Source: a bacterium (GTDB lineage: Bacteria; Margulisbacteria; WOR-1; O2-12-FULL-45-9; XYB2-FULL-48-7). Taken from it: 64,000 nt of DNA. The stretch lies in contig JBDRLW010000008.1 in assembly GCA_043812655.1 (NCBI GenBank), positions 3,198 through 67,197 of the forward strand, read 5' to 3'. This document shows, piece by piece, positions 37,697 to 62,456 of this stretch (its first letter is position 1; each line of letters starts with the position of its first letter). The notes below the pieces were generated by a model that did no database searches, had not been told where the DNA came from, and was given only the letters and a program-made list of their open reading frames with translations. Position numbers and translations under genes: made by a program.

Positions 37697-37713
37697 AGCA
37701 ATTTCATTGCCAG
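37697..37713 (-). promoter_or_regulatory. Sigma54 (-24/-12) promoter for glnN
   Basis: Minus-strand cTGGCAAtgaaaTTGCTt is a near-consensus TGGCAC-N5-TTGCW element, about 50 nt upstream of the start. Confidence 0.6.
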
Positions 37714-46230: not shown

Positions 46231-46247
46231 AGCAAACTTTCTGCCAG
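46231..46247 (-). promoter_or_regulatory. Sigma54 (-24/-12) promoter for porin-amt-glnK
   Basis: Minus-strand cTGGCAGaaagtTTGCTc is near-perfect consensus. It overlaps the ORF-track start of the porin, which argues for the downstream ATG. Confidence 0.65.
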
Positions 46248-50368: not shown

Positions 50369-51889
50369 TTAGTTTACTTTAATTTTATATTTTCCGATCT
50401 TATAACCCAACATCCTTTCGGTGATCCCCAGCGCTTTAGCCGCTTTACGCTGGCTTTTATATTTCCCAAGCGCTTTTTCGATCCGCTGTTTTTCGATCGC
50501 TTCAACGATCTGCGGGAGCGTCGCCCCTTCCGGCTGGATGTCTTCTTCTTTTTTGATCGAAATAGTGGCCGGCAAATATCGCGGCGTGATCACATCTTCA
50601 TCGCAGATCACGACCGCTCGCTCAATGATATTTTCCAGTTCCCGGACATTCCCGGGAAAATCGTATTTCACCAAAATATCTAGGGCCGCGCGGTTGAGCC
50701 CTTTTATTTTTTTCTTATTCTCCTTATTATATTTATGGACGAAATGGTCGGAGAGCAAGGGAACATCTTCGCTCCGTTCACGTAAAGGCGGTAGTATGAC
50801 GGGAAAAACATTGATCCGGTAATAAAGATCTTCCCGGAATTTGCCTTGTTTTACCATTTCGGTCAAGTTGCGGTGGGTCGCGCAAATTACCCGGACATTG
50901 ATCTTGATCGTTTCGTTGCCACCGAGACGCTCAAATTCTTTTTCCTGCAAGATCCGCAACAGTTTGACCTGGGTCGCTAAGGTCAAGTCGCCAATCTCAT
51001 CAAGGAAAAGCGTCCCTTCATTAGCCAATTCAAACCGCCCCTTCCGCCGCTCGGTCGCGCCGGTAAATGCCCCTTTTTCATAGCCAAAAAGTTCCGCTTC
51101 GAGCAAATTCTCCGGCAGCGCGGCGCAAGCGACTTTAATGAATGGTTTATCGGTCCGGCCGCTCGAGTAATGGATCGCCGACGCGACTAATTCTTTCCCG
51201 GTCCCCGATTCGCCAAGGAGCAGGACCGTCGCCTGGCTGTCAGCCACTTGCATCGCTGAAACCAACATCGTTTCCATGATCCGCGAACTGTACACTATAT
51301 TTCCAAACTGATATTTCCCTTTTAATTCCCGACGGAGTTTGATATTCTCCGAAACGACCGCCTGCTTATCAAGCAGCGCTAATTCCCTTACCCGCACCGC
51401 CTGCCCCACCATCGCCGCAATGATCGTTAAAAGCTTAATGTCTTCTTCGTAAGAAATATTCCCTTTAAAAAGATGGTCAACTGAAAGGGCGCCAATAGTT
51501 TTATTTCCCGCTTTGATCGGCACACAAAGGAAGGCAAATTTTCTCTCCTGCAAATTCCGCCGCGCCTGGGTCCGGTTCAAAAAAAGTGGGTCAGCTTCAA
51601 TATTTGGAATAACCATCGGTTCACCCGTCGCTACCACCCGGCCGGTGATCCCTTCGCCGATCTTATAGCGGCCCCGCTCTTTTTCTTCTTTTGTTAGCCC
51701 GTGCGCAACTTCGATCCGCAGTTCGTTAGTTCCAGGCGTGGTTAAAGTGATCGTCCCCCGCTCCATTTCCAGCGAATCGGCCAAAACCTTTAGGATCGAA
51801 TCAAGTGTTTCGGGCAGGTCAAGCGAAGTCGACAGCGCGGTACTAATATCAACTAAAACCTTAACTTTAATATCTCTGGTCGGACTCAT
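50369..51889 (-). CDS. GAF-domain sigma54-dependent transcriptional activator (NifA/NtrC family) with C-terminal Fis-type HTH
   Basis: N-terminal GAF domain, Walker A GESGTGKE, GAFTGA sigma54-contact motif, C-terminal HTH. Confidence 0.85.
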   Translation of the reverse strand: MSPTRDIKVKVLVDISTALSTSLDLPETLDSILKVLADSLEMERGTITLTTPGTNELRIEVAHGLTKEEKERGRYKIGEGITGRVVATGEPMVIPNIEADPLFLNRTQARRNLQERKFAFLCVPIKAGNKTIGALSVDHLFKGNISYEEDIKLLTIIAAMVGQAVRVRELALLDKQAVVSENIKLRRELKGKYQFGNIVYSSRIMETMLVSAMQVADSQATVLLLGESGTGKELVASAIHYSSGRTDKPFIKVACAALPENLLEAELFGYEKGAFTGATERRKGRFELANEGTLFLDEIGDLTLATQVKLLRILQEKEFERLGGNETIKINVRVICATHRNLTEMVKQGKFREDLYYRINVFPVILPPLRERSEDVPLLSDHFVHKYNKENKKKIKGLNRAALDILVKYDFPGNVRELENIIERAVVICDEDVITPRYLPATISIKKEEDIQPEGATLPQIVEAIEKQRIEKALGKYKSQRKAAKALGITERMLGYKIGKYKIKVN

Positions 51890-51912: not shown

Positions 51913-51941
51913 ATTGTAGCAAACAACACGCCGGGTAGCAA
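51913..51941 (-). promoter_or_regulatory. Sigma70-type promoter (TTGCTA-17-TACAAT) of the sigma54-activator operon; copy A of a duplicated promoter
   Basis: Minus strand reads TTGCTAcccggcgtgttgtttgcTACAAT. Its 17-bp spacer is nearly identical to the copy at 56082-56110. Confidence 0.5.
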
Positions 51942-51970
51942 TGTTTTGAAGGCTAGATTCTATTTTTTAA

Positions 51971-52417
51971 TTAAAGCCCATTATCCTTCCTAATCCTCTG
52001 GATATATTTGCGTTCAACAAGTTTGCTAGCCAACACTTTTTGGATAATATTTTTCAGCCGATCGGCCGATAAATTACCCAGGACATGAAGTTGATGAAGG
52101 TTATAATTATTTTGCAATTCTATAATATCTAATTCGAAAACACGATTTGGCTGGATATAGGTCTCCCTTTCAAACGCTCCTTCCTGGCCGGCCGCGATAC
52201 AAACATCATCGCCGCGATAATGGCGGTTATGGTCGTCAATCGGCGTTGTGGTTGCTATTGTTGCCAGAACTGTTCGCAAATCAGCCGCCGTCAAAATTAT
52301 CAAACGCTTAAAGTGGCTTTCGCCGTCTGGAAAATAAACCAGGGTTCGAATGACGCAACCAGGAGCCAGCCACTCCAGCAATGCCTTGTCAGTAACTTTT
52401 TTAGGCAGGTCAAGCAT
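51971..52417 (-). CDS. Hypothetical protein; candidate toxin partner of the Panacea-domain protein
   Basis: 148 aa, overlaps the upstream Panacea gene by 8 bp. No recognisable family from sequence. Confidence 0.3.
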   Translation of the reverse strand: MLDLPKKVTDKALLEWLAPGCVIRTLVYFPDGESHFKRLIILTAADLRTVLATIATTTPIDDHNRHYRGDDVCIAAGQEGAFERETYIQPNRVFELDIIELQNNYNLHQLHVLGNLSADRLKNIIQKVLASKLVERKYIQRIRKDNGL

Positions 52418-52967
52418 TTTTGGAGAAAAGGTGGGTCAGGGCTTTATTGTTGTCGCTGTCTTCTTTCAATATTTCAACCAAAGCCTTTTTCCTCTCTGCC
52501 GGTAATTCATCAATCATGTCATACGCTGATATTTCTCCATGTTCGCTGGCGTTTTGCCAGGAGTTTTCTTTGTGGCTGATATCAACCAAGCGGCTGGATG
52601 TATAACGGCCATACTCGTTAATGACTCTTTGGATAATTATTGTTTCTGATTCGGACAGCTCTTTTAAATCCGGCTTATTTTTGCATTTAATCGTCCGGTT
52701 TTTATCGCTGCCAATAATAAGATACCGCCGCAAATACGCCTCTTCTTCTTTAAACAGGTTGCCTCTTTCGTTAATAATATCCAAAACCTGGGAAGGGATC
52801 GGGCCAAGCGGCAATTTAAAATAGATATCGCCAGTAACAAATCTGCCATATTCGATTAAATGCAGTTTATCGATGTAATACAATAATTTACAGGCCTTTA
52901 ATTTATCAATTGGCCCAAGCTCATCAGCCAAACAGCCTAAAACCGCTACCACTTTTCTTATGTTCAT
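52410..52967 (-). CDS. Panacea-domain (DUF4065, SocA-like) protein; probable antitoxin
   Basis: KLLYYIDKLHLIEYGRFVTGDIYFKLPLGPIP matches the Panacea core (KLqKLLY...GPV). Confidence 0.55.
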   Translation of the reverse strand: MNIRKVVAVLGCLADELGPIDKLKACKLLYYIDKLHLIEYGRFVTGDIYFKLPLGPIPSQVLDIINERGNLFKEEEAYLRRYLIIGSDKNRTIKCKNKPDLKELSESETIIIQRVINEYGRYTSSRLVDISHKENSWQNASEHGEISAYDMIDELPAERKKALVEILKEDSDNNKALTHLFSKNA

Positions 52968-52979
52968 TGCCGCTCCCTC

Positions 52980-55900
52980 CTATTTTTTATTGTCATTATA
53001 GACCTTCATCCCTTCCTTCACCACCCCAACATTATCAATCTCCCCCATAATCCTATCCGTTTCAGTCAACGCCACAATAATCTTCTGATAATGCTCAATA
53101 TCGCTATTGGTTAATGTCCTTCCCTTGCGGTCTTTGAGCCATTTTTGCGCCGGCTGGTAGCCGCCAATATAGAAATGCCAGGCAACTTCCGGCACTTTGC
53201 CAAAATATTGGTCTTTATTAATAAAGACTTTGCCGTCTTTATAAGCTATCTTCTCAGTTGCATTGGTTCCAGCGACTGGATACGTCGTTATAAAGTTATT
53301 TACTTTGGGCGATTCAAGGAGGTGCAATGAGCGCAATTCTGTTCCAAGTTCGGCCAGAGCTTTAAATGTTTTAGCATCGTTAGGATACGGCACACGAGGA
53401 AAATCACTCTTCAAAAACTCTTTAAACTTTGTTCGATAAGCTGGCGAGTGTAAAACTGCGTAAATATAGTCAAGAATGTTTTCTGGGGAAACAGCACCTA
53501 TACTTTTTTCTATTTCATCAAGAACTTCCTTTTTAAAGTTTGGAGATTTACTTCCATCTTCTTTAAAAATATAAAGTGGAAAAACCTGTTCGCCTCCACG
53601 ATAAAAGCAATTAAGATCAACAATGCTATCTATAACAAAAGCAACATTCCATTCCATCGAACCGACAGCTTGTCCTTGACGCCCTACAGCAAGGCCTAAA
53701 TTATGCCCTTTTAGAAAATTAGTCATCAATTTAATTCTTGGCCGCCAAATCAATTTGCTATCAAAATATGTATATTGCCGGTCAAATGGCCGGTAGATAA
53801 TTGGAACAAGCTTGTCTTGTTCAAAAATAATATCCTTTTTGTTCCCTGCTATCCATTTAGAATAATTTTTCCCAAGGTCATATTGCTCATTCATTGTGCT
53901 TTCGGAAATATTTTCGGATAGATAGTTTTCAATTCGTCTACTTAATATATCCCTATCCATATTAATAATAAAACCATCACCTAAAGTAAACACACCGGTT
54001 GTGCTTTCCACAAAAAAATCATTCAAATTAAACCCTTGTTGATATTCCACTTCAAGCTTTCCCGACCCTTCCGAGGCAAAAACAAGATTTGGCTGGCGCG
54101 ATTCCAATTGTACCCATTCAGCTTTTCCCACTGAAAGATCATTAAGAAGTTTAAATTTATTTTCGCGATCACCCCAAATATCAAGTCGATATATTTTTGC
54201 GAGATCGCCTTTCTTTTTCTTCCCAGTTTTTACCGCCAACATAATTGCCACTCCCTGTTGTATGGCAAAGACATTTTCATCTTTACTCCCGTCTGGCGCA
54301 ACTTCTTTTTTCTTAGCGTTCCCGTGAAGATCAATAACATAAATAGAATCAAATGTATCCATAAGATGCCAGCGCATCCCACGAAAGGTCGGGTTATCCA
54401 AGTATCCATGATTGGTAATAAAACCAACAACACCCTCCCCGTTCTTCGCGATCATATCTTCAGCAAAGGCAATAAACTTTACATAATCATCATTAAGCCA
54501 ATGTTTCCGCTCTTGGAGTTTTTGCTTGCCTCCAGGCTCAACTTTATACTTAGCAACCAGGCTATTGGCATAATCTGTTTCATTTGAAGAAACACCAGAA
54601 TACGGCGGATTGCCGATCACTACCATGATCGGCATCTCGTTTTTGATCTTGCTTGCTTCCTTAGCTTCTTCGGCAATACTTTCGGCCAATCCAAAAGAAA
54701 ACATGGTTTGCTGGGCTTCGCCAGCTTCCAAAGAATTGGTCAGATAGATTCCCAACCGCCGATGAAATTTCCAAAAGCCGGTCTTCTTAAAAGCCAGGCT
54801 TAATTTCAAATGCGCGATCGTGTACGGAGTCATCATCAGTTCAAACCCGTGCAGTCGAGGTAAAAGGTCATTGTGGACATAAGCCGGCCAGCGCCCATCC
54901 TGCCCCTGCTTTTTAAGCCTGCCATAAATAAGATTGATCGCCGCGCTGATAAAGGTCCCTGTTCCCACCGCCGGATCAAGGATTTGCACCCGGTGCTTGT
55001 TGTTTGGCAGTTTTGAAGTGTCGGCTAAGCCGCCAGCTAAGCCAAACTCATTTTTCAGGATATGATCAACCGATCGGACGATAAAATTAACCACCGGCAA
55101 AGGAGTATAATATGCCCCCATCCTCTTGCGCAGTTCAGGATCGTATTCCCTTAGAAAATCCTCATAAAAATGGATAACAGGATCAGCATCCCTTAAATAA
55201 TCCTCAAGCAACTGTTTTATATTGGAATGCAGGAAAACAACACAAAGTTCATCAACAATATAGCTCAATCGCTTGTCAAAACTTGGTCCGGCAATGTGGT
55301 CAAAAAAATGCCGCAAAAATGGGTTTGAGGCTGGCACCAGGTCGCGCGCCTCCTGGCGGGAAAAAGTATCAGACGTTTCATCATAATAGCGGGCCACAAA
55401 CAGGCCATAGACTAGCGTTTGGGCGTACATGTCGGCAAATGATTCAAACGTCAGGTCATGGACCAGCATTTTCTTGATCGCTTCATACACCCTAACCAGC
55501 TCGCCATTTTTTTCCGACTCGAGCGTCAAATAATGCAGGATATTATCCCTGATCCTCTGCGCCTTGCCACCCATTATTTTAGCCAGGTGTTCGCCTGATT
55601 TTATCGGCTCTTTATGCGACTGGGCAAAATCCAGCAGTGTTTTCGCTGCGTGTTCGTAATTTTCCGGCAGTAGCGTGATCACGCGATCCTTTAGATCATA
55701 GGTCGCTATTTTTATGGATTCATTATAACGCTTGCCATTTCGATAAAAACGAAATTCCAAGTAATCGGTCAAAACCAGGTTAGCATAACCAAAATATCTG
55801 GCCATTTGCTCCGATTTTTCCACTTTATCCAAAGAGACGCCAATATCTTTTGTTTCTATATAAAGAATCGGCACTTCATTATATAAAATAAAATCCGGCC

Positions 55901-56069
55901 GGTTTCCCTCATTAGCCTTTGGGTCATTATCAATCCTTTTAACCTTAATAGATTCAAAAATCCCCTTCAGTAATATTTCAAAATCAGCGCGGTATCCCAT
56001 TTCGCTGGTTTCTTCATGCGAAAACTTTTCCGAGACTGATTTAAGGTATTTAGCTACTATTTCTTTCAT
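52980..56069 (-). CDS. MmeI-family Type IIL restriction-modification enzyme (single-chain PD-ExK nuclease + gamma-class N6-adenine MTase + TRD)
   Basis: N-terminal RPDFILYNEVPILYIETKD (D...ExK arranged as in MmeI), MTase motif I DPAVGTGTF, motif IV NPPY. 1029 aa. ATGA overlap with the upstream gene. Confidence 0.7.
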   Translation of the reverse strand: MKEIVAKYLKSVSEKFSHEETSEMGYRADFEILLKGIFESIKVKRIDNDPKANEGNRPDFILYNEVPILYIETKDIGVSLDKVEKSEQMARYFGYANLVLTDYLEFRFYRNGKRYNESIKIATYDLKDRVITLLPENYEHAAKTLLDFAQSHKEPIKSGEHLAKIMGGKAQRIRDNILHYLTLESEKNGELVRVYEAIKKMLVHDLTFESFADMYAQTLVYGLFVARYYDETSDTFSRQEARDLVPASNPFLRHFFDHIAGPSFDKRLSYIVDELCVVFLHSNIKQLLEDYLRDADPVIHFYEDFLREYDPELRKRMGAYYTPLPVVNFIVRSVDHILKNEFGLAGGLADTSKLPNNKHRVQILDPAVGTGTFISAAINLIYGRLKKQGQDGRWPAYVHNDLLPRLHGFELMMTPYTIAHLKLSLAFKKTGFWKFHRRLGIYLTNSLEAGEAQQTMFSFGLAESIAEEAKEASKIKNEMPIMVVIGNPPYSGVSSNETDYANSLVAKYKVEPGGKQKLQERKHWLNDDYVKFIAFAEDMIAKNGEGVVGFITNHGYLDNPTFRGMRWHLMDTFDSIYVIDLHGNAKKKEVAPDGSKDENVFAIQQGVAIMLAVKTGKKKKGDLAKIYRLDIWGDRENKFKLLNDLSVGKAEWVQLESRQPNLVFASEGSGKLEVEYQQGFNLNDFFVESTTGVFTLGDGFIINMDRDILSRRIENYLSENISESTMNEQYDLGKNYSKWIAGNKKDIIFEQDKLVPIIYRPFDRQYTYFDSKLIWRPRIKLMTNFLKGHNLGLAVGRQGQAVGSMEWNVAFVIDSIVDLNCFYRGGEQVFPLYIFKEDGSKSPNFKKEVLDEIEKSIGAVSPENILDYIYAVLHSPAYRTKFKEFLKSDFPRVPYPNDAKTFKALAELGTELRSLHLLESPKVNNFITTYPVAGTNATEKIAYKDGKVFINKDQYFGKVPEVAWHFYIGGYQPAQKWLKDRKGRTLTNSDIEHYQKIIVALTETDRIMGEIDNVGVVKEGMKVYNDNKK

Positions 56070-58570
56070 TTATCATTTAGACTATAGCAAACAACGCGCT
56101 GGGTGGCAATGTCGGAAAGCAGGATCAGCGGTTGTTTAGAAAAATCAAAGATCCGGACGACTCGGCGCAAGGCTTTGTCATCATGAAGTTCTTCTTTAGC
56201 CAAAGAAGGGTTCAGTTTAAAACCGTTAAACAGGGCCAGATAGAATATTTGGGCTTCGACCAGGTCAAGAAAAAAGTGCGAGCCAAAAGAGAGTTCCGGC
56301 ATAAAACCACTTTCGGGCTCCGCCACTTCAACCAGAGCGGCAAAATTATTGATCTCGGCAAAACTGACCGGGACACCCAGTGTCGCGTCCTTTGTCCCCC
56401 AGCGGCCGGGACCAATCAGCATTGTCGGATGTTTTTTTCTGTCTTTAATTTCCCTGTTAAGCCGGCCGATCAATCTAGCTACGGTAAATTTTTTATTATA
56501 CAAAAGCTTGGCATATTCCCTAGTATCGATATAAATAACCTTGTTAATTGGCTGGGAGACATTCCCCCCCATAAAATTACCTGTCGTTTCAATCAATGAG
56601 TTTTCCGGCTTGATCTTCCCCGGCATTTTTACCGGGAGGTTTGGCCCCTTCGCCTGGAGCGGTCGGCATTGCAGAACATTGACCTGCAGTTTTCCTGCTC
56701 GATTATAATTAGCGGTAAACTCAACATCGACCGGATATTCATAGACCGCTTCCAGCCGCGCCAGCATCTGCTGAAGGCTAACGGCGAATTCTGTTTTGGA
56801 CAAAAGCTGGTCAAAAGTCAAAAACAGGAAATCTTGCTTACTTCTCTGCGCGATCAATTCCAAGTTAATGGCTGGCTCTTCGGTTAAAAGTTGTGACAGC
56901 GGCAATGAAATTAATTCGTTTTTTTCTATATCGAGCAGGTCAACTTCGTGCTGGGAAAACTTAAGTTTGTCTTCCACCCCGGCATACGGCTGTAAAAGCG
57001 GTTTATCAAGCGCTACAACTCGGGGATAGTCCCCTTCAACCCGGTTGACCGCCCTGGTCCCCAAACCAAAAACCAGACGAAGCATCCCCGCTTTTGGGTC
57101 CATTTCTTGATTCCAAACAAAAGTATTGTAAGAAACCCCTACCCCGGCTAAAAATGGAAAAAAATATTTTTGATACTGCGTCCCAGAAACGCGCTGGACC
57201 AAAAGAGCCATCTGCTCGTCTTGCAGGCCCAAACCCCTCTGCTGCCGATAGGTTAGCGCATCTTCATTCATCGTGCTGGCAAAGACTTCCCTGACCGTCC
57301 GTTCATAATTGACGTAGCGCTCATCCAGGCTACCCTGATTAACGCAAAAAATACTCTCATACTTCCCGGCAAAGGCGTTGCCAAACCCGTCTTCCAATAA
57401 ACTGGAAGAACGGATAATGATCGGCGACTGGCCATAATATTCCAGGAGTTGGTTGAATTGTTCCCTGATCTCATCAGGAAAATTTCCCGTTAGAAGTTTT
57501 TCTTTTAAGTCGGCCGCTTTGGCAAAAAAGCCCTCGGTTGTTTTTTGCTCCAGCCAGAGGTCCCACCAGCCATTTTGGACAATGTAAGAATAAAAAACAT
57601 CGGAACCGATATAAAAAGAATCATGCGCTTCCAGTTTTTCTTCCCAATTGGCCAGGATCTTACGCGCCAGGAGCATCCCCACCGCTTTTCCCCCGATATA
57701 GCCGGTGCCGATCATCCGGTTTTTGATCGCGATCAAATCTTCCAAGGCAAAATATTTTTTGACCAAAGAGAGCATCCGCTCTTCCCGTCCGACCATGATC
57801 CGTAATAACTGGTCAACCATTTTATTTTTTTCTTCCTCGGCCGCTTCAGTCTTGGTCAGCTCCTCCGCCTTAATAAATAGCCTGTCCCAATAATCAAGGT
57901 TCCGCTCGGCCGTTTCCGCCCCCTTGGCCGACATATAAGCTAAAAGCCGGGCTGCGTCGACACTGCTGGTCAGCGGCAAATATTTTTCCCCTTCCGCGAT
58001 ATGGGGCAAGAACATCGTCGGCGAATAGCGGTTCCAGACTTTTAAGGGATGAAGATAATACTTCCCTTCAAAGCTATAAACATCAAGTAAAAGCTGGGTC
58101 GTTTCCCTGATCCGGGCAATGGTTTTATAAGAATGATTATTCCGTAAAATGGCAAAATAAGCCAAAGTATTTAATTTAAAAAGATAGGGGCAAGTGACCA
58201 TGAAAAAGTTCCCGATCATGAGGTCTGTCGCCCAGGCAAAAAGCAGATCGGATAAACAATCAAAAAGATAAAAAGCCCCATCCCCTTCCAGTGTGATGAT
58301 CTCGTGAACCTCTTTGGAAAAGGATTCAAACCCGACCGTCGCGTCAAGATCATAAGTCTTTACGTCTTTTATTAGCGGCGGATGGCTGGCAAAGCGGATA
58401 TAAATGATCTTGCGCCCGTCTTTTTTAGCTTGTTCAATATAAGGCCTTACAAAATAGAGATAATCCTCAATACGGTCAACCTGCCAAACAACATTATCCC
58501 CCTTCCTTAAACCCTGAAGGATGTTGTCAAGCCCATTCACTCCGGAACTGACAAAATTTATCGTCTTCAT
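56066..58570 (-). CDS. Large protein with a degenerate KaiC/RecA-like N-terminal domain and a PEP-utilising-enzyme ATP-grasp (PPDK_N-type) nucleotide-binding domain; no phospho-His swivel domain
   Basis: IIRSSSLLEDGFGNAFAGKYES matches the PpsA/PPDK N-domain (VAVRSSATAEDLPxASFAGQ). GGKAVGMLLARKIL and a C-terminal VDVEFT...LQCRP fit the ATP-grasp. The N-terminal SSGVNGLDNILQGL resembles a KaiC/RadA fold but has no P-loop. Confidence 0.5.
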   Translation of the reverse strand: MKTINFVSSGVNGLDNILQGLRKGDNVVWQVDRIEDYLYFVRPYIEQAKKDGRKIIYIRFASHPPLIKDVKTYDLDATVGFESFSKEVHEIITLEGDGAFYLFDCLSDLLFAWATDLMIGNFFMVTCPYLFKLNTLAYFAILRNNHSYKTIARIRETTQLLLDVYSFEGKYYLHPLKVWNRYSPTMFLPHIAEGEKYLPLTSSVDAARLLAYMSAKGAETAERNLDYWDRLFIKAEELTKTEAAEEEKNKMVDQLLRIMVGREERMLSLVKKYFALEDLIAIKNRMIGTGYIGGKAVGMLLARKILANWEEKLEAHDSFYIGSDVFYSYIVQNGWWDLWLEQKTTEGFFAKAADLKEKLLTGNFPDEIREQFNQLLEYYGQSPIIIRSSSLLEDGFGNAFAGKYESIFCVNQGSLDERYVNYERTVREVFASTMNEDALTYRQQRGLGLQDEQMALLVQRVSGTQYQKYFFPFLAGVGVSYNTFVWNQEMDPKAGMLRLVFGLGTRAVNRVEGDYPRVVALDKPLLQPYAGVEDKLKFSQHEVDLLDIEKNELISLPLSQLLTEEPAINLELIAQRSKQDFLFLTFDQLLSKTEFAVSLQQMLARLEAVYEYPVDVEFTANYNRAGKLQVNVLQCRPLQAKGPNLPVKMPGKIKPENSLIETTGNFMGGNVSQPINKVIYIDTREYAKLLYNKKFTVARLIGRLNREIKDRKKHPTMLIGPGRWGTKDATLGVPVSFAEINNFAALVEVAEPESGFMPELSFGSHFFLDLVEAQIFYLALFNGFKLNPSLAKEELHDDKALRRVVRIFDFSKQPLILLSDIATQRVVCYSLNDK
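56082..56110 (-). promoter_or_regulatory. Internal sigma70-type promoter (TTGCCA-17-TATAGT) for the Type IIL gene; copy B of the duplicated promoter
   Basis: Minus strand reads TTGCCAcccagcgcgttgtttgcTATAGT. It lies inside the 3' end of the 837-aa gene, 13 nt upstream of the RM enzyme ATG. Confidence 0.5.
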
Positions 58571-59547
58571 AAATCCCAAAAACTGATTAATTTATCATAA
58601 TCAATGATCGAAACCAAGGCTTTGCTTTCTGTCACTATGCCAGATTCTTCGGCGGCGGCGACCGGATTAAGCCCTCCTGGAATTACTATCCCCACCCGTT
58701 CGAGGCCAACCGGTACGCCAAGGATCGTTTGGCCGGCTTTGCCGATCATAATCGCTTTGCCTAAGCCGGCCGATTCTGCCCGGCGCAAGATCGCCTCGGC
58801 TTCATCGCGCGAAGCCGCCGGGATCTCCCTTAAGCTGGCCAATATTTTCCCCTTGCCAAGGCAGGCGGCACTGACGCTGGTCATCCGGCTCTTTAAAAAT
58901 ATTTCGTGCGGATCAAGCGTTGAACCGGTGTAATTGATAATATCGGTAAAACGGAGCGGCCGTTCATCTTCGATCTGCAGGATCCCGCCAAATCTTGATT
59001 CGATCGGAATGGAATGCTTGGTCAATATCCCATTTAGGTTGATACTGCAGAGCGTGCCAAAGGCCACTTGCCCGGGCGGAACAATTATCCCGCCAATTTT
59101 TTCGCCTTCAGGTACGACCACCACGAGTTCACCGGTCGCAAAGCCGCTTTTGAAAACTTGAGCCATAACTCCCAAGGCCTTTTTAAAGTCTTTTTTCTGG
59201 AAAAAAGAGAGATTTAAGATCACTCCGCCCGATTTATTTTCAAGGTCAAAATCCATTTTATACGCCATCGTCTCAATACGTGAGCTCATAAAGCCAACTT
59301 TATCAAAAACCAGCGCGTCCCCTAACTCTTCCAGCCCTTTACTGGTGATCATCCGCCCCTCCTTCCAAATTACTTTGGTTAAACCACGCTCGTTCATCAC
59401 TTTTAAATGATAGCGGACCGCCCTCTCCGAAAGTTCAATCCCATGATCTTTCAATTTTTTGGCTATGTCAGCCGAACCGATCGGCTCGCTCTTCTGTGAA
59501 ATTATCCGCAAGATCGCGTTGATCTTCCTGTCTAAGTCCGTCGTCAT
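58567..59547 (-). CDS. NrpR-like regulator (N-terminal winged HTH + DUF128 nitrogen-regulatory domain)
   Basis: IISQKSEPIGSADIAKKL...RAVRYHLKVMNERGL wHTH followed by one roughly 230-aa domain. Divergent from gdhA. Start trimmed to the ATG at 59547. Confidence 0.45.
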   Translation of the reverse strand: MTTDLDRKINAILRIISQKSEPIGSADIAKKLKDHGIELSERAVRYHLKVMNERGLTKVIWKEGRMITSKGLEELGDALVFDKVGFMSSRIETMAYKMDFDLENKSGGVILNLSFFQKKDFKKALGVMAQVFKSGFATGELVVVVPEGEKIGGIIVPPGQVAFGTLCSINLNGILTKHSIPIESRFGGILQIEDERPLRFTDIINYTGSTLDPHEIFLKSRMTSVSAACLGKGKILASLREIPAASRDEAEAILRRAESAGLGKAIMIGKAGQTILGVPVGLERVGIVIPGGLNPVAAAEESGIVTESKALVSIIDYDKLISFWDL

Positions 59548-59569
59548 AACGAGAATATTATAACATGGA

Positions 59570-59599
59570 TTGACATACGGCAATAGGTTGCCGTATAAT
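59570..59599 (+). promoter_or_regulatory. Consensus sigma70 promoter of gdhA with a perfect 9-bp inverted-repeat operator in the spacer
   Basis: TTGACA-18 nt-TATAAT. The spacer and -10 contain ATACGGCAAtaggTTGCCGTAT (59575-59596). AAGGAGG SD precedes the gdhA ATG. Confidence 0.6.
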
Positions 59600-59643: not shown

Positions 59644-61008
<1,365 letters not shown>

Positions 61009-61097: not shown

Positions 61098-61736
61098 TTA
61101 GAAGAACGCCATCCTGGCTCCAGCGGCTAGGATAAAGCCATCGAGCGGCAATGAATTACCGCTGCTATCCTTAATGCTGGTCCGCAAATAATTGATCTGG
61201 GCAAAAGCTCCGGTATCTGGGCCAAGGCCAAATTCGATCCCTGTCCCGATCTGGGCGCCAAATCCGGCAAAACTTGAAGGGGAATTAAGTTTAACTTCGC
61301 TGGATTTATTGGCTGTATAGTAGTTGGCTTCGGCATCCAAATAAAGATTGGCGATACCATGGGCGCTGGAATCCCCCCAACTAAGAACATACATTCTAGC
61401 TCCATAGCCAAACCTTAAAATTGAATAAGTCGCGTTAAGCGTGGTCCCCTGGTCATTATTAAATGACGATAGGCCAAATCTAGGTCCAGTATCTAAGTTC
61501 TGGTTTAATCTAGCGTCGAACTCAAGCCCAAGATCATACGCTGTAGTTTTTGTCGCCAAAACATCCCTGTTGGGAGAGATCATACTTAACCTTACCCCCA
61601 ATCTATAGGACTTTTTCTGAGACATCGCCAATAGATCTTTCGTTGAAACCGTGCTTGTCCCTTCGATCGCGTAAGCCGGAACTATCGCCGCTAAACTTAA
61701 AACAAAAACCGCCAACAAAGTAAGGACCTTTTTCAT
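61098..61736 (-). CDS. Small outer-membrane beta-barrel protein (OmpW/OmpA-like), tandem paralog 1
   Basis: Signal peptide and C-terminal ...ARMAFF aromatic terminus. About 50% identical to the neighbouring paralog. Confidence 0.5.
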   Translation of the reverse strand: MKKVLTLLAVFVLSLAAIVPAYAIEGTSTVSTKDLLAMSQKKSYRLGVRLSMISPNRDVLATKTTAYDLGLEFDARLNQNLDTGPRFGLSSFNNDQGTTLNATYSILRFGYGARMYVLSWGDSSAHGIANLYLDAEANYYTANKSSEVKLNSPSSFAGFGAQIGTGIEFGLGPDTGAFAQINYLRTSIKDSSGNSLPLDGFILAAGARMAFF

Positions 61737-61802: not shown

Positions 61803-62456
61803 TTAGAAAAAGGCCATCCTGCTGCCAACCGTCAAAACTAAGCCGTCAAGAGGCAAAGTATGACTGCTTATGTCGTTTATGCTGGTGCGCAAATAATCGA
61901 TCTGGGCAAAAGCTCCGGTATTCGGCCCGAAAGTAAACTCAAGCCCCACCCCCGCTTGAACCCCAAGCCCGGCAAAACTGGCAGGGGAAATAGCCAGCGC
62001 GGTTGAGTCTTTGATCTTATTAGCGGCAAAATAATTAACTTCCCCGGCAAAATAGAGGTTAGCAAACCCATGAAGACTGGAATGGTCGCTCCAGTTAATA
62101 GCATAAAGCTTGGCGCCATAACCAAACCTGATGATCTGATATGAAGCATTTAGCGTTGTTCCCTGGTCATTGACACAAGAGGCAATACCAAACCGCGGGC
62201 CGGTATCAAGATTTTCATTGAACTTAAAATCAAATGCAAGCCCAATGTCATAAGCAGGGATCTTGGTCGCCAATATATCGCTAGCCGGAGAGATCATGCT
62301 GACTTTAACCCCTAATCCAAGATTTTTTCTTTGGGCTAATGTTAATAATTCTTTTGTTGAAACTGTAGTTGTCCCTTCAAGCGCATAAACAGGGACAAGA
62401 CTTATTCCTCCTAAAATAAAAATAGTAAGGGAACACAACCAAAAATACTTTCTCAT
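61803..62456 (-). CDS. Small outer-membrane beta-barrel protein, tandem paralog 2
   Basis: Signal peptide and C-terminal ...SRMAFF. Paralogous to 61098-61736. Confidence 0.5.
   Translation of the reverse strand: MRKYFWLCSLTIFILGGISLVPVYALEGTTTVSTKELLTLAQRKNLGLGVKVSMISPASDILATKIPAYDIGLAFDFKFNENLDTGPRFGIASCVNDQGTTLNASYQIIRFGYGAKLYAINWSDHSSLHGFANLYFAGEVNYFAANKIKDSTALAISPASFAGLGVQAGVGLEFTFGPNTGAFAQIDYLRTSINDISSHTLPLDGLVLTVGSRMAFF

What the first reader, a model, noticed from the sequence alone, without database searches (positions are those of the whole stretch)
56066..58570. An 837-aa protein combines a P-loop-less KaiC/RecA-like N-domain with a PEP-synthase-type ATP-grasp domain
The central region matches the nucleotide-binding domain of pyruvate-water / pyruvate-phosphate dikinases (GGKAVGML...; IIRSSSLLEDGFGNAFAGKYES). 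The protein lacks the His-swivel and PEP/pyruvate domains, so it cannot be a canonical dikinase. The first 90 aa resemble a KaiC/RadA fold but have no Walker A. Proteins of this kind, such as rifampicin phosphotransferase relatives, phosphorylate small molecules or other proteins. Placement upstream of and translationally coupled to an RM enzyme suggests it modifies a nucleic acid, nucleotide or protein in defence.
Basis: inference. Interest (0 to 1): 0.7.

Follow-up and report, generated by a model that had tools for sequence, protein, structure and literature searches.

The report
Nitrogen-cluster ATP-grasp enzyme, not defence
The gene is real and its odd domain mix is as described, but it belongs to a large, uncharacterised protein family that sits inside ammonium-assimilation gene clusters in many anaerobic bacteria, and the restriction enzyme next to it arrived on a small mobile island.

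Summary

The defence reading fails. A 28-nt direct repeat (25/28 identical, 0 expected by chance) brackets a ~4.2-kb island carrying the Type IIG RM gene and a SocA-type toxin-antitoxin pair. A displaced copy of the gene's 3' end (…IATRRVVCYNNV*) lies 14 nt upstream of the sigma54 activator gene. None of 80 related loci carries the RM gene. 65 of 80 carry ammonium-assimilation genes (GDH, GS, GOGAT, Amt, PII, NrpR, CarAB, CTP synthase), usually immediately adjacent and on the same strand.

Best reading: an uncharacterised ATP-dependent phosphotransferase tied to the glutamate/glutamine node. Its substrate is unknown.

The parts
56066..58570 (-). Whole gene: 834-aa KaiC-like / ATP-grasp / C-domain protein (alternative TTG start at 58579)
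   Evidence: ORF. Identical to NCBI MFH1386359.1. More than 8000 homologues, 830-870 aa full length. 221 of 834 positions are >=97% identical across 75 species-level relatives.
57971..58570 (-). N-domain, residues 1-~200: degenerate KaiC/RecA-like fold with no Walker A and no catalytic Glu pair; Walker-B-like Asp104 kept
57701..57970 (-). Helical linker, residues ~201-290
   Evidence: AF2 secondary structure shows helices 203-284.
56642..57700 (-). PPDK_N ATP-grasp nucleotide-binding domain, residues 291-643. Invariant K295 (GGK), R387 (RSSS), Q459/R460, E617, Q634, R636
56069..56641 (-). C-terminal domain, residues 644-834: candidate cryptic swivel domain with motifs GPGRWG (720-725) and PELSFGS-H765-FFxDLVE
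56276..56278 (-). Codon of invariant His765, the proposed phospho-acceptor
   Evidence: Invariant. Sits at the N-terminus of helix 765-772 in both models.
58567..59583 (-). nrpR (HTH_12 + NRD1_2); its stop overlaps the ATG of the gene (ATGA)
   Evidence: Pfam E=2.9e-81. Overlap. The same 4-nt overlap occurs in relative L001. NrpR lies immediately upstream in 9 related loci.
59680..61008 (+). Glutamate dehydrogenase, divergent from nrpR
   Evidence: ORF. The GDH cluster is present in 34 of 80 related loci, at a median 228 nt from the gene.
50369..51889 (-). Sigma54 activator with GAF domain; the ancestral downstream neighbour of the gene
   Evidence: ORF. Orthologue cluster 15 is GAF + Sigma54_activat + HTH_8. 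It directly follows the gene, with gaps of 23-43 nt, in relatives L006, L008, L013, L014 and L015.
51945..56084 (.). Inserted island of ~4.2 kb: 148-aa putative toxin (51971-52417), SocA/Panacea antitoxin (52410-52967), Type IIG RM (52980-56069), all on the minus strand
   Evidence: Bracketed by the direct repeat. GC falls to 0.35-0.41 at 52.6-54.7 kb, against 0.46-0.51 in the flanks. PADLOC REase_MTase_IIG E=5e-292 and Pfam SocA_Panacea E=4e-22. Absent from all 80 related loci.
56085..56112 (.). Direct repeat copy inside the present 3' end of the gene (encodes DIATQRVVCY)
51917..51944 (.). Direct repeat copy: the displaced original 3' end of the gene. The minus strand reads NIATRRVVCYNNV*, ending 14 nt before the sigma54-activator ATG
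   Evidence: 25 of 28 nt identical. 0 matches expected in 100 shuffles.

Best explanation
The gene encodes a member of a large, strongly conserved and uncharacterised family of three-domain ATP-utilising enzymes. The family belongs to the ammonium-assimilation (glutamate/glutamine) gene cluster, not to a defence system.

Anatomy:
- A degenerate KaiC/RecA-like N-domain that can no longer bind ATP through a P-loop.
- A helical linker.
- A PPDK_N ATP-grasp with all nucleotide and Mg ligand motifs intact.
- A C-terminal domain of the swivelling beta/beta/alpha fold class with an invariant His765.

Proposed mechanism (inferred, not shown). ATP binds the ATP-grasp. A phosphoryl group passes to His765 on the C-domain. 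That domain then carries it to an acceptor held by the N-domain, much as in rifampin phosphotransferase, where ATP-grasp, substrate domain and C-terminal swivel cooperate. The N-domain is the specificity module: sister families keep the ATP-grasp + C-domain core and swap the N-terminus. The acceptor is most likely a protein or metabolite of the 2-oxoglutarate/glutamate/glutamine node, such as GDH, GOGAT, GS, PII or a small molecule. The protein would then act as a regulator or auxiliary enzyme of nitrogen assimilation.

The adjacent Type IIG RM gene and TA pair are cargo of a ~4.2-kb island that inserted into the last codons of the gene. That insertion created the ATGA overlap.
For: Shown:
- Domain anatomy.
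- ATP-grasp motifs are invariant: K295, R387, Q459/R460, E617, Q634, R636. They align to the E. coli PpsA nucleotide-binding region.
- The family is under strong purifying selection: 221 of 834 positions are >=97% identical across 75 species from several phyla.
- Neighbourhood. Among 80 species-level loci, 65 carry at least one N-assimilation gene, and 32 of the 36 with >=5 kb on both sides do. Same-strand upstream neighbours are GltD (24), GDH (18), NrpR (9) and the sigma54-GAF activator (5). Downstream neighbours are CarA (9) and CTP synthase (7). In Omnitrophota the order is amt-glnB-glnA-gltB-gltD-X-carA-carB-purF-like-pyrG. Independent metagenome contigs show the same.
- The window holds the same cluster: GS-III, Amt, NAD synthase, GltD-like, sigma54-GAF, NrpR and GDH.
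- Island insertion: a 28-nt direct repeat, the relic 3' end NIATRRVVCYNNV* 14 nt upstream of the activator ATG, a GC dip, and absence of the RM/TA genes in relatives that have X directly followed by the activator.
- The ATP-grasp and C-domain are always fused, with variable N-termini. G-P-G-R-W-G and G-[ST]-H-F-F are invariant across sister families.

Inferred:
Against: - No sequence-profile link exists between the C-domain and canonical swivel domains: hhalign Prob 0.4% against five E. coli swivel domains and nothing against PpsA alone.
- No substrate is identified. Gene neighbourhood shows linkage, not a mechanism.
- 15 of 80 loci show no nitrogen gene, though many of those are short contigs.
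- No NrpR-type GGAA-N6-TTCC operator is found near the operon.
- Six literature searches found no experimental data for the family.
Confidence: 0.6

Rival explanations
1. One reading: a defence-associated kinase, translationally coupled to the Type IIG RM enzyme, that modifies nucleic acid, nucleotides or a protein during phage defence.
For: The ATGA stop/start overlap with the RM gene is real. The RM enzyme is a strong Type IIG match.
Against: The RM/TA block is an insertion flanked by a 28-nt repeat, with the displaced original gene end still present. 0 of 80 relatives carry RM, SocA or the toxin. There is no PADLOC hit. The family is conserved at 55-70% identity across phyla in housekeeping nitrogen operons.
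Confidence: 0.02
2. An ordinary PEP synthase / pyruvate phosphate dikinase paralogue working in gluconeogenesis, as several database names ('phosphoenolpyruvate synthase') imply.
For: PPDK_N match. Some sources name homologues PEP synthase or pyruvate water dikinase.
Against: There is no PEP/pyruvate TIM-barrel domain (PF02896) and no PF00391 hit. NCBIfam PEP-synthase scores are 15-54 bits against cut-offs of 598-1063. The 290-aa KaiC-like N-terminus and the different C-terminus do not fit. The context is nitrogen, not gluconeogenesis.
Confidence: 0.03
3. One half of a split, two-component dikinase like HpeHI or phenylphosphate synthase. The protein supplies only the ATP-grasp, and a separately encoded swivel/substrate protein carries the catalytic His.
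For: Split dikinases exist: HpeI is an ATP-grasp-only protein that works with HpeH (PMC12167813). HpeI (9goj) is a sequence and structure hit.
Against: None of the 892 ORFs flanking 80 loci contains a canonical swivel motif G[GA]x[TS][SC]H[AS]. No conserved neighbour of unknown function travels with the gene across phyla. The protein already carries a conserved extra domain with an invariant His, fused in every family member.
Confidence: 0.08
4. A non-catalytic sensor or scaffold. The ATP-grasp and the pseudo-KaiC domain bind ATP/ADP and a nitrogen metabolite (2-oxoglutarate, glutamine). They regulate GDH, GOGAT, GS or a transcription factor by protein-protein contact, without phosphotransfer.
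Against: All catalytic-type ATP-grasp residues and His765 are invariant over wide divergence. That is more than ligand binding usually requires.
Confidence: 0.14
5. A metabolic enzyme that uses the ATP-grasp for direct substrate activation, without a phospho-His intermediate. It would form an acyl- or enol-phosphate on a glutamate/2-oxoglutarate-related metabolite, and the C-domain would be a substrate or oligomerisation domain.
For: Enzyme-like conservation and operon position between gltD and carA/pyrG, among glutamine-using enzymes. The swivel assignment is unsupported by hhalign and Foldseek.
Against: PPDK_N-type ATP-grasps characterised so far act through a swivel His (established knowledge of PpsA, PPDK and RPH; for HpeHI). 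The invariant G-[ST]-H motif sits in a swivelling-fold domain.
Confidence: 0.13

Closest known systems
Rifampin phosphotransferase (RPH) and related small-molecule dikinases (PigC/RedH, YvkC)
   Different: The specificity domain here is an N-terminal KaiC-like pseudo-ATPase rather than the RIF-binding domain. The C-domain is 190 aa, gives no PF00391 match, and has GSH/GTH-FF in place of TSH-AA. Its relation to the swivel domain is fold-level only. The context is nitrogen assimilation, not antibiotic resistance or pigment synthesis.
PEP synthase (PpsA) / pyruvate phosphate dikinase
   Same: Homologous nucleotide-binding domain with the same motifs: GGK, RSS..ED...FAG, QRxV, E...Q.RP.
   Different: Lacks the PEP/pyruvate-binding TIM barrel and the canonical swivel. 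Has an extra N-domain. NCBIfam scores fall far below the cut-offs.
HpeHI / phenylphosphate-synthase-type two-component dikinases
   Same: An ATP-grasp separated from the usual PpsA domain set. HpeI 9goj is a hit (PMC12167813).
   Different: No separate swivel/substrate partner gene was found in 80 neighbourhoods. The context is not aromatic catabolism.
KaiC-like RecA-superfamily ATPases (KaiC, SSO2452, PH0284, FlaH/ArlH) and their pseudo-ATPase relatives (Elp4/5/6, BcsE N-domain)
   Different: Walker A and the catalytic Glu pair are absent. It is a single domain, fused to an ATP-grasp. No evidence for a hexamer was obtained here.
Enzyme I-Ntr (PtsP) of the nitrogen phosphotransferase system (functional analogy only)
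   Different: PtsP uses PEP and a TIM-barrel domain, whereas this protein has an ATP-grasp. There is no detectable sequence relation outside the putative swivel fold.

Membership tests
PEP-utilising dikinases (PpsA/PPDK) | PPDK_N ATP-grasp nucleotide-binding domain | tested here: met
   PF01326 E=1.1e-48 over residues 291-643. hhalign to E. coli PpsA Prob 92%.
PEP-utilising dikinases (PpsA/PPDK) | Canonical swivel phospho-His domain (PF00391, GGxTSH motif) | tested here: inconclusive
PEP-utilising dikinases (PpsA/PPDK) | PEP/pyruvate-binding TIM-barrel domain (PF02896) | tested here: not met
   No hit. The protein ends 190 aa after the ATP-grasp. NCBIfam PEP-synthase scores are <=54 bits against cut-offs >=598.
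Rifampin phosphotransferase-like small-molecule dikinases | ATP-grasp plus C-terminal swivel His domain plus dedicated substrate-binding domain | tested here: inconclusive
KaiC family ATPases | RecA-like core fold | tested here: met
KaiC family ATPases | Walker A P-loop (GxxGxGKT) and catalytic Glu pair after strand 2 | tested here: not met
   The sequence reads GDNVVWQVDRIEDY and YIRFASH at those positions, conserved across the family. No PF06745 hit at E<=10.
KaiC family ATPases | Hexameric ring; duplicated CI-CII domains | not testable with these tools
   Only one RecA-like domain is present. The oligomeric state was not modelled.
Anti-phage defence system component | Match to a known defence protein model | tested here: not met
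   PADLOC gives 0 families at E<=0.01.
Anti-phage defence system component | Conserved genomic linkage to defence genes (here the RM enzyme) | tested here: not met
   0 of 80 related loci carry RM, SocA or the toxin. The RM gene lies on an inserted island.
Two-component (split) dikinase, HpeHI type | Separately encoded swivel/substrate-binding partner next to the ATP-grasp gene | tested here: not met
   No ORF with a swivel motif among 892 flanking ORFs, and no conserved unknown neighbour across phyla.
Ammonium-assimilation gene cluster (operon membership, not a protein family) | Recurrent same-strand adjacency to glnA, gltBD, gdh, amt, glnB and nitrogen regulators in unrelated lineages | tested here: met
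   65 of 80 loci. Three different operon architectures occur in Omnitrophota, Planctomycetota and Margulis/Saganbacteria.

The most novel reading that the evidence does not exclude
The family is an unrecognised ATP-driven phospho-His enzyme that regulates central nitrogen assimilation in anaerobic bacteria (Omnitrophota, Planctomycetota, Margulis/Saganbacteria, Syntrophales, Spirochaetota, Elusimicrobiota). The KaiC-like pseudo-ATPase domain would sense or dock a component of the 2-oxoglutarate/glutamine node. His765 would then phosphorylate a target such as GDH, GOGAT, GS or PII. Its role would parallel the covalent-modification enzymes GlnD/GlnE of Proteobacteria, or the still-unidentified PII kinase of cyanobacteria.
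Probability: 0.3. Interest if true: 0.8.

Novelty: new variant of a known kind. Interest (0 to 1): 0.6.

Why it matters
Ammonium assimilation (GS/GOGAT/GDH with PII, Amt and their regulators) is among the best-studied parts of bacterial metabolism. Even so, a large protein of ~850 aa sits inside these operons in at least eight mostly uncultivated anaerobic phyla with no assigned function. It is conserved at 55-70% identity between phyla.

Databases call it 'PEP synthase' or 'PEP/pyruvate-binding domain protein'. That label is misleading, because the protein cannot bind PEP or pyruvate in the known way.

If it is a phosphotransferase acting on the glutamate/glutamine node, it would add a new control or catalytic step to nitrogen assimilation. 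It would also define a new module type (ATP-grasp + GPGRWG/GTHFF domain) reused with other N-terminal domains and with Pol-beta nucleotidyltransferase domains.

The case also carries a practical warning. A stop/start overlap with a defence gene can be produced by an island inserting into the end of a housekeeping gene, so it is not evidence of shared function.

Tried and rejected
- Defence role. Rejected after the PADLOC scan, the 80-locus neighbourhood survey and the island boundary analysis.
- Sequence-level test of a cryptic swivel. Pfam at E<=10 on C-terminal fragments found only the tail of PPDK_N. hhalign of the C-domain profile against E. coli PpsA and against an alignment of five E. 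coli swivel domains, PpsA, PtsI, PtsP, PtsA and FryA, found nothing significant. An 8-residue local match suggested an alternative register, GPGRWGT..LGVPV against GGRTSH..LGIPAV. I rejected it because it does not fit the order of secondary-structure elements in the model.
- Foldseek of the C-domain against the PDB found nothing with E<0.1. The afdb50 library was unavailable.
- Searching with the N-domain alone and with a C-domain profile for other architectures. Nearly all N-domain hits were fragments of this family, carrying PPDK_N or no Pfam annotation. The C-domain occurs only with PPDK_N and sometimes with a Pol-beta NTase domain, never with PF00391.
- NCBIfam scan of sister-family proteins found no curated family. 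NF004508 gave only weak partial hits.
- The methanogen-type NrpR operator GGAA-N6-TTCC occurs 3 times in the window, as expected by chance, and never near the operon.
- Literature. Six full-text searches and one paper check found no description of this family. The only useful paper was on HpeHI.
- The look-up of encoding contigs for the exact window protein found nothing on record.
- P0002/P0121 (1459-1484 aa) are tandem duplications of the same protein, not informative fusions.
Full report
**1. The observation**

The window has an ORF at 56066..58579 on the minus strand, 837 aa from TTG. The ATG at 58570 gives 834 aa. The 834-aa form is identical to an NCBI MAG protein, MFH1386359.1, named 'PEP/pyruvate-binding domain-containing protein'. 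Its ATG overlaps the stop codon of the upstream gene as ATGA.

Pfam finds one domain, PPDK_N (PF01326), at residues 291-643 with E=1.1e-48. NCBIfam gives only partial, far sub-threshold matches to PEP synthase, RPH and PigC/RedH models, 15-54 bits against cut-offs of 598-1700. There is no hit to the swivel domain (PF00391) or the PEP/pyruvate TIM barrel (PF02896), even at E<=10 on the C-terminal part.

**2. Structure**

I built an AlphaFold2 model from a 73-sequence alignment. It has pLDDT 84 and pTM 0.81.

**3. The overlooked C-terminal domain**

Residues ~644-834 fold confidently on their own (pLDDT 89, pTM 0.88).

- Modular core. Among 150 representatives of clusters at 50% identity, 59 have all three domains. 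Another 55 have the ATP-grasp plus this C-domain with a different N-terminus, some with an added Pol-beta nucleotidyltransferase domain or as tandem duplications. The C-domain never occurs without the ATP-grasp in complete proteins.
- Invariant motifs. Across the sister families, G720-P-G-R-W-G725, G732, E748, S761, G763, His765, F766 and F767 are invariant or nearly so.
- Position of His765. In the model His765 sits at the N-terminus of a helix, preceded by G-S (G-T in sister families), with Glu at His+7. This parallels GGxTSH-AAIxARE in canonical swivel domains. The order of strands and helices around it also matches.
- Negative results. Profile-profile comparison with five E. coli swivel domains is negative (Prob 0.4%). 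Foldseek finds nothing.

I therefore treat 'cryptic phospho-His swivel domain' as the leading hypothesis, at roughly 55%, and not as a result.

**4. The RM gene is on an inserted island**

A 28-nt direct repeat, 25 of 28 identical, lies at 51917-51944 and 56085-56112. No match was expected in 100 shuffles.

- One copy forms the last codons of the gene and reads …DIATQRVVCYSLNDK*.
- The other copy reads NIATRRVVCYNNV* on the minus strand and ends 14 nt before the ATG of the sigma54-GAF activator gene.
- Between the copies lie a 148-aa ORF, a SocA/Panacea antitoxin and the Type IIG RM gene. GC in this stretch drops to 0.35-0.41.
- In Margulis- and Saganbacteria relatives the gene is followed directly by the activator gene, with gaps of 23-43 nt.

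A ~4.2-kb cassette therefore inserted into the 3' end of the gene and supplied a new end. The ATGA 'coupling' with the RM gene is a by-product of that event.

**5. True context**

The search for related loci returned 80 species-level loci. They come from Margulisiibacteriota, Saganbacteria, Planctomycetota, Omnitrophota, Spirochaetota, Elusimicrobiota, Auribacterota and deltaproteobacterial MAGs, at 53-67% identity over the full length.

- tblastn found the RM, SocA and toxin genes in 0 of 80 loci.
- Clustering the 892 flanking ORFs and annotating the clusters with Pfam gave these counts per 80 loci:
  - GDH 34, median 228 nt away
  - GS 28
  - GOGAT large subunit 28
  - GltD 25, median 25 nt away
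  - Amt 23
  - PII 21
  - CTP synthase 13
  - CarA 13
  - CarB 11
  - NrpR 12
  - sigma54-GAF activator 11
  - PurF-like amidotransferase 8
- 65 of 80 loci have at least one of these genes. Among the 36 loci with >=5 kb on both sides, 32 do.
- Three distinct architectures recur:
  - Omnitrophota: amt-glnB-glnA-gltB-gltD-X-carA-carB-purF-like-pyrG
  - Planctomycetota: lysR< gdh-X
  - Margulis/Saganbacteria: gdh< nrpR-X-activator-amt-glnB-glnA
- Independent metagenome contigs agree.
- The window itself carries GS-III, Amt, NAD synthase, a GltD-like gene, the activator, NrpR and GDH.

By rough reasoning, a 20-kb window should contain a given single-copy gene in under 1% of cases. The linkage is therefore far beyond chance, and it persists through rearrangements.

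**6. Mechanism**

Shown:
- An intact ATP-grasp.
- A conserved modular core (ATP-grasp + C-domain) with exchangeable N-termini.
- A pseudo-KaiC N-domain under very strong constraint.
- Operon membership in ammonium assimilation.

Inferred:
- ATP-dependent phosphorylation of His765.
- Delivery of the phosphoryl group to an acceptor bound by the N-domain.
- The acceptor belongs to the 2-oxoglutarate/glutamate/glutamine node.

Whether the protein is a regulator that modifies another protein or a metabolic enzyme cannot be decided here. Rivals are a sensor/scaffold without catalysis, direct ATP-grasp activation without phospho-His, and a split dikinase with an unseen partner.

**7. Comparison with known families, and novelty**

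The closest characterised relatives are RPH-type small-molecule dikinases and PpsA/PPDK, through the ATP-grasp, and KaiC-like ATPases, through the N-domain. The protein fails defining features of each:
- no TIM barrel
- no recognisable PF00391 domain
- no P-loop

No Pfam, NCBIfam, PADLOC or PDB entry covers the N- or C-domain. Six literature searches found nothing on the family. I rate it a new variant of a known kind: a dikinase-type ATP-grasp enzyme with a new architecture and a new, well-supported physiological context.

**8. Verdict**

The defence interpretation is refuted. The gene is an interesting unknown of central nitrogen metabolism. Interest 0.6.

Noticed in passing
window 51945-56084 (repeats at 51917-51944 and 56085-56112): A ~4.2-kb cassette carries a Type IIG RM gene, a SocA/Panacea antitoxin and a 148-aa putative toxin. 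It is inserted into the 3' end of a housekeeping gene, has 28-nt imperfect direct repeats and no integrase. It is a compact defence islet whose means of mobility is unclear.
   Followed up: yes
window 56081-56109 and 51913-51941 (minus strand): Each repeat copy contains a sigma70-like promoter match: TTGCCA-17-TATAGT (10/12, with TG) and TTGCTA-17-TACAAT (9/12). The promoter of the sigma54-activator gene may lie inside the end of the upstream gene. If so, the insertion duplicated it and it may now also drive the RM gene.
   Followed up: partly
window 59570-59599: A perfect TTGACA-18-TATAAT promoter faces the GDH gene. A perfect palindrome, ACGGCAA-tagg-TTGCCGT (59577-59594), lies between the hexamers. 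It is a likely operator in the nrpR/gdh divergent region and is unique in the window. The methanogen NrpR operator GGAA-N6-TTCC is not present there.
   Followed up: partly
window 37697-37712 and 46231-46246 (minus strand): Sigma54-promoter-like sites (TGGCAA-N5-TTGCT and TGGCAG-N5-TTGCT, one mismatch each) lie just upstream of the GS-III gene and of the 252-aa ORF/Amt operon. This fits control by the GAF-sigma54 activator.
   Followed up: partly
proteins P0259, P0264, P0270, P0412, P0425, P0455 and others (public collections): Sister families keep the ATP-grasp + C-domain core but replace the KaiC-like N-terminus with other ~190-aa or ~340-aa N-termini. Some add a C-terminal Pol-beta-type nucleotidyltransferase domain. 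Others (P0198, P0200, P0212, 1520-1650 aa) are tandem duplications of the core.
   Followed up: partly
L017, L020, L024, L025, L028, L034, L035, L039, L044, L050, L051, L059, L064, L070 (Planctomycetota loci): A conserved block, fabA-like< flavodoxin< 514-aa unknown< 287-aa unknown< HAD< lysR<, lies upstream of gdh-X. The two unknown proteins have no Pfam match.
   Followed up: no
window 61098-61736 and 61803-62456 (minus strand): Two adjacent paralogous ORFs of 212 and 217 aa have signal-peptide-like N-termini and very similar sequences. They may be outer-membrane beta-barrel proteins. They lie just downstream of GDH.
   Followed up: no
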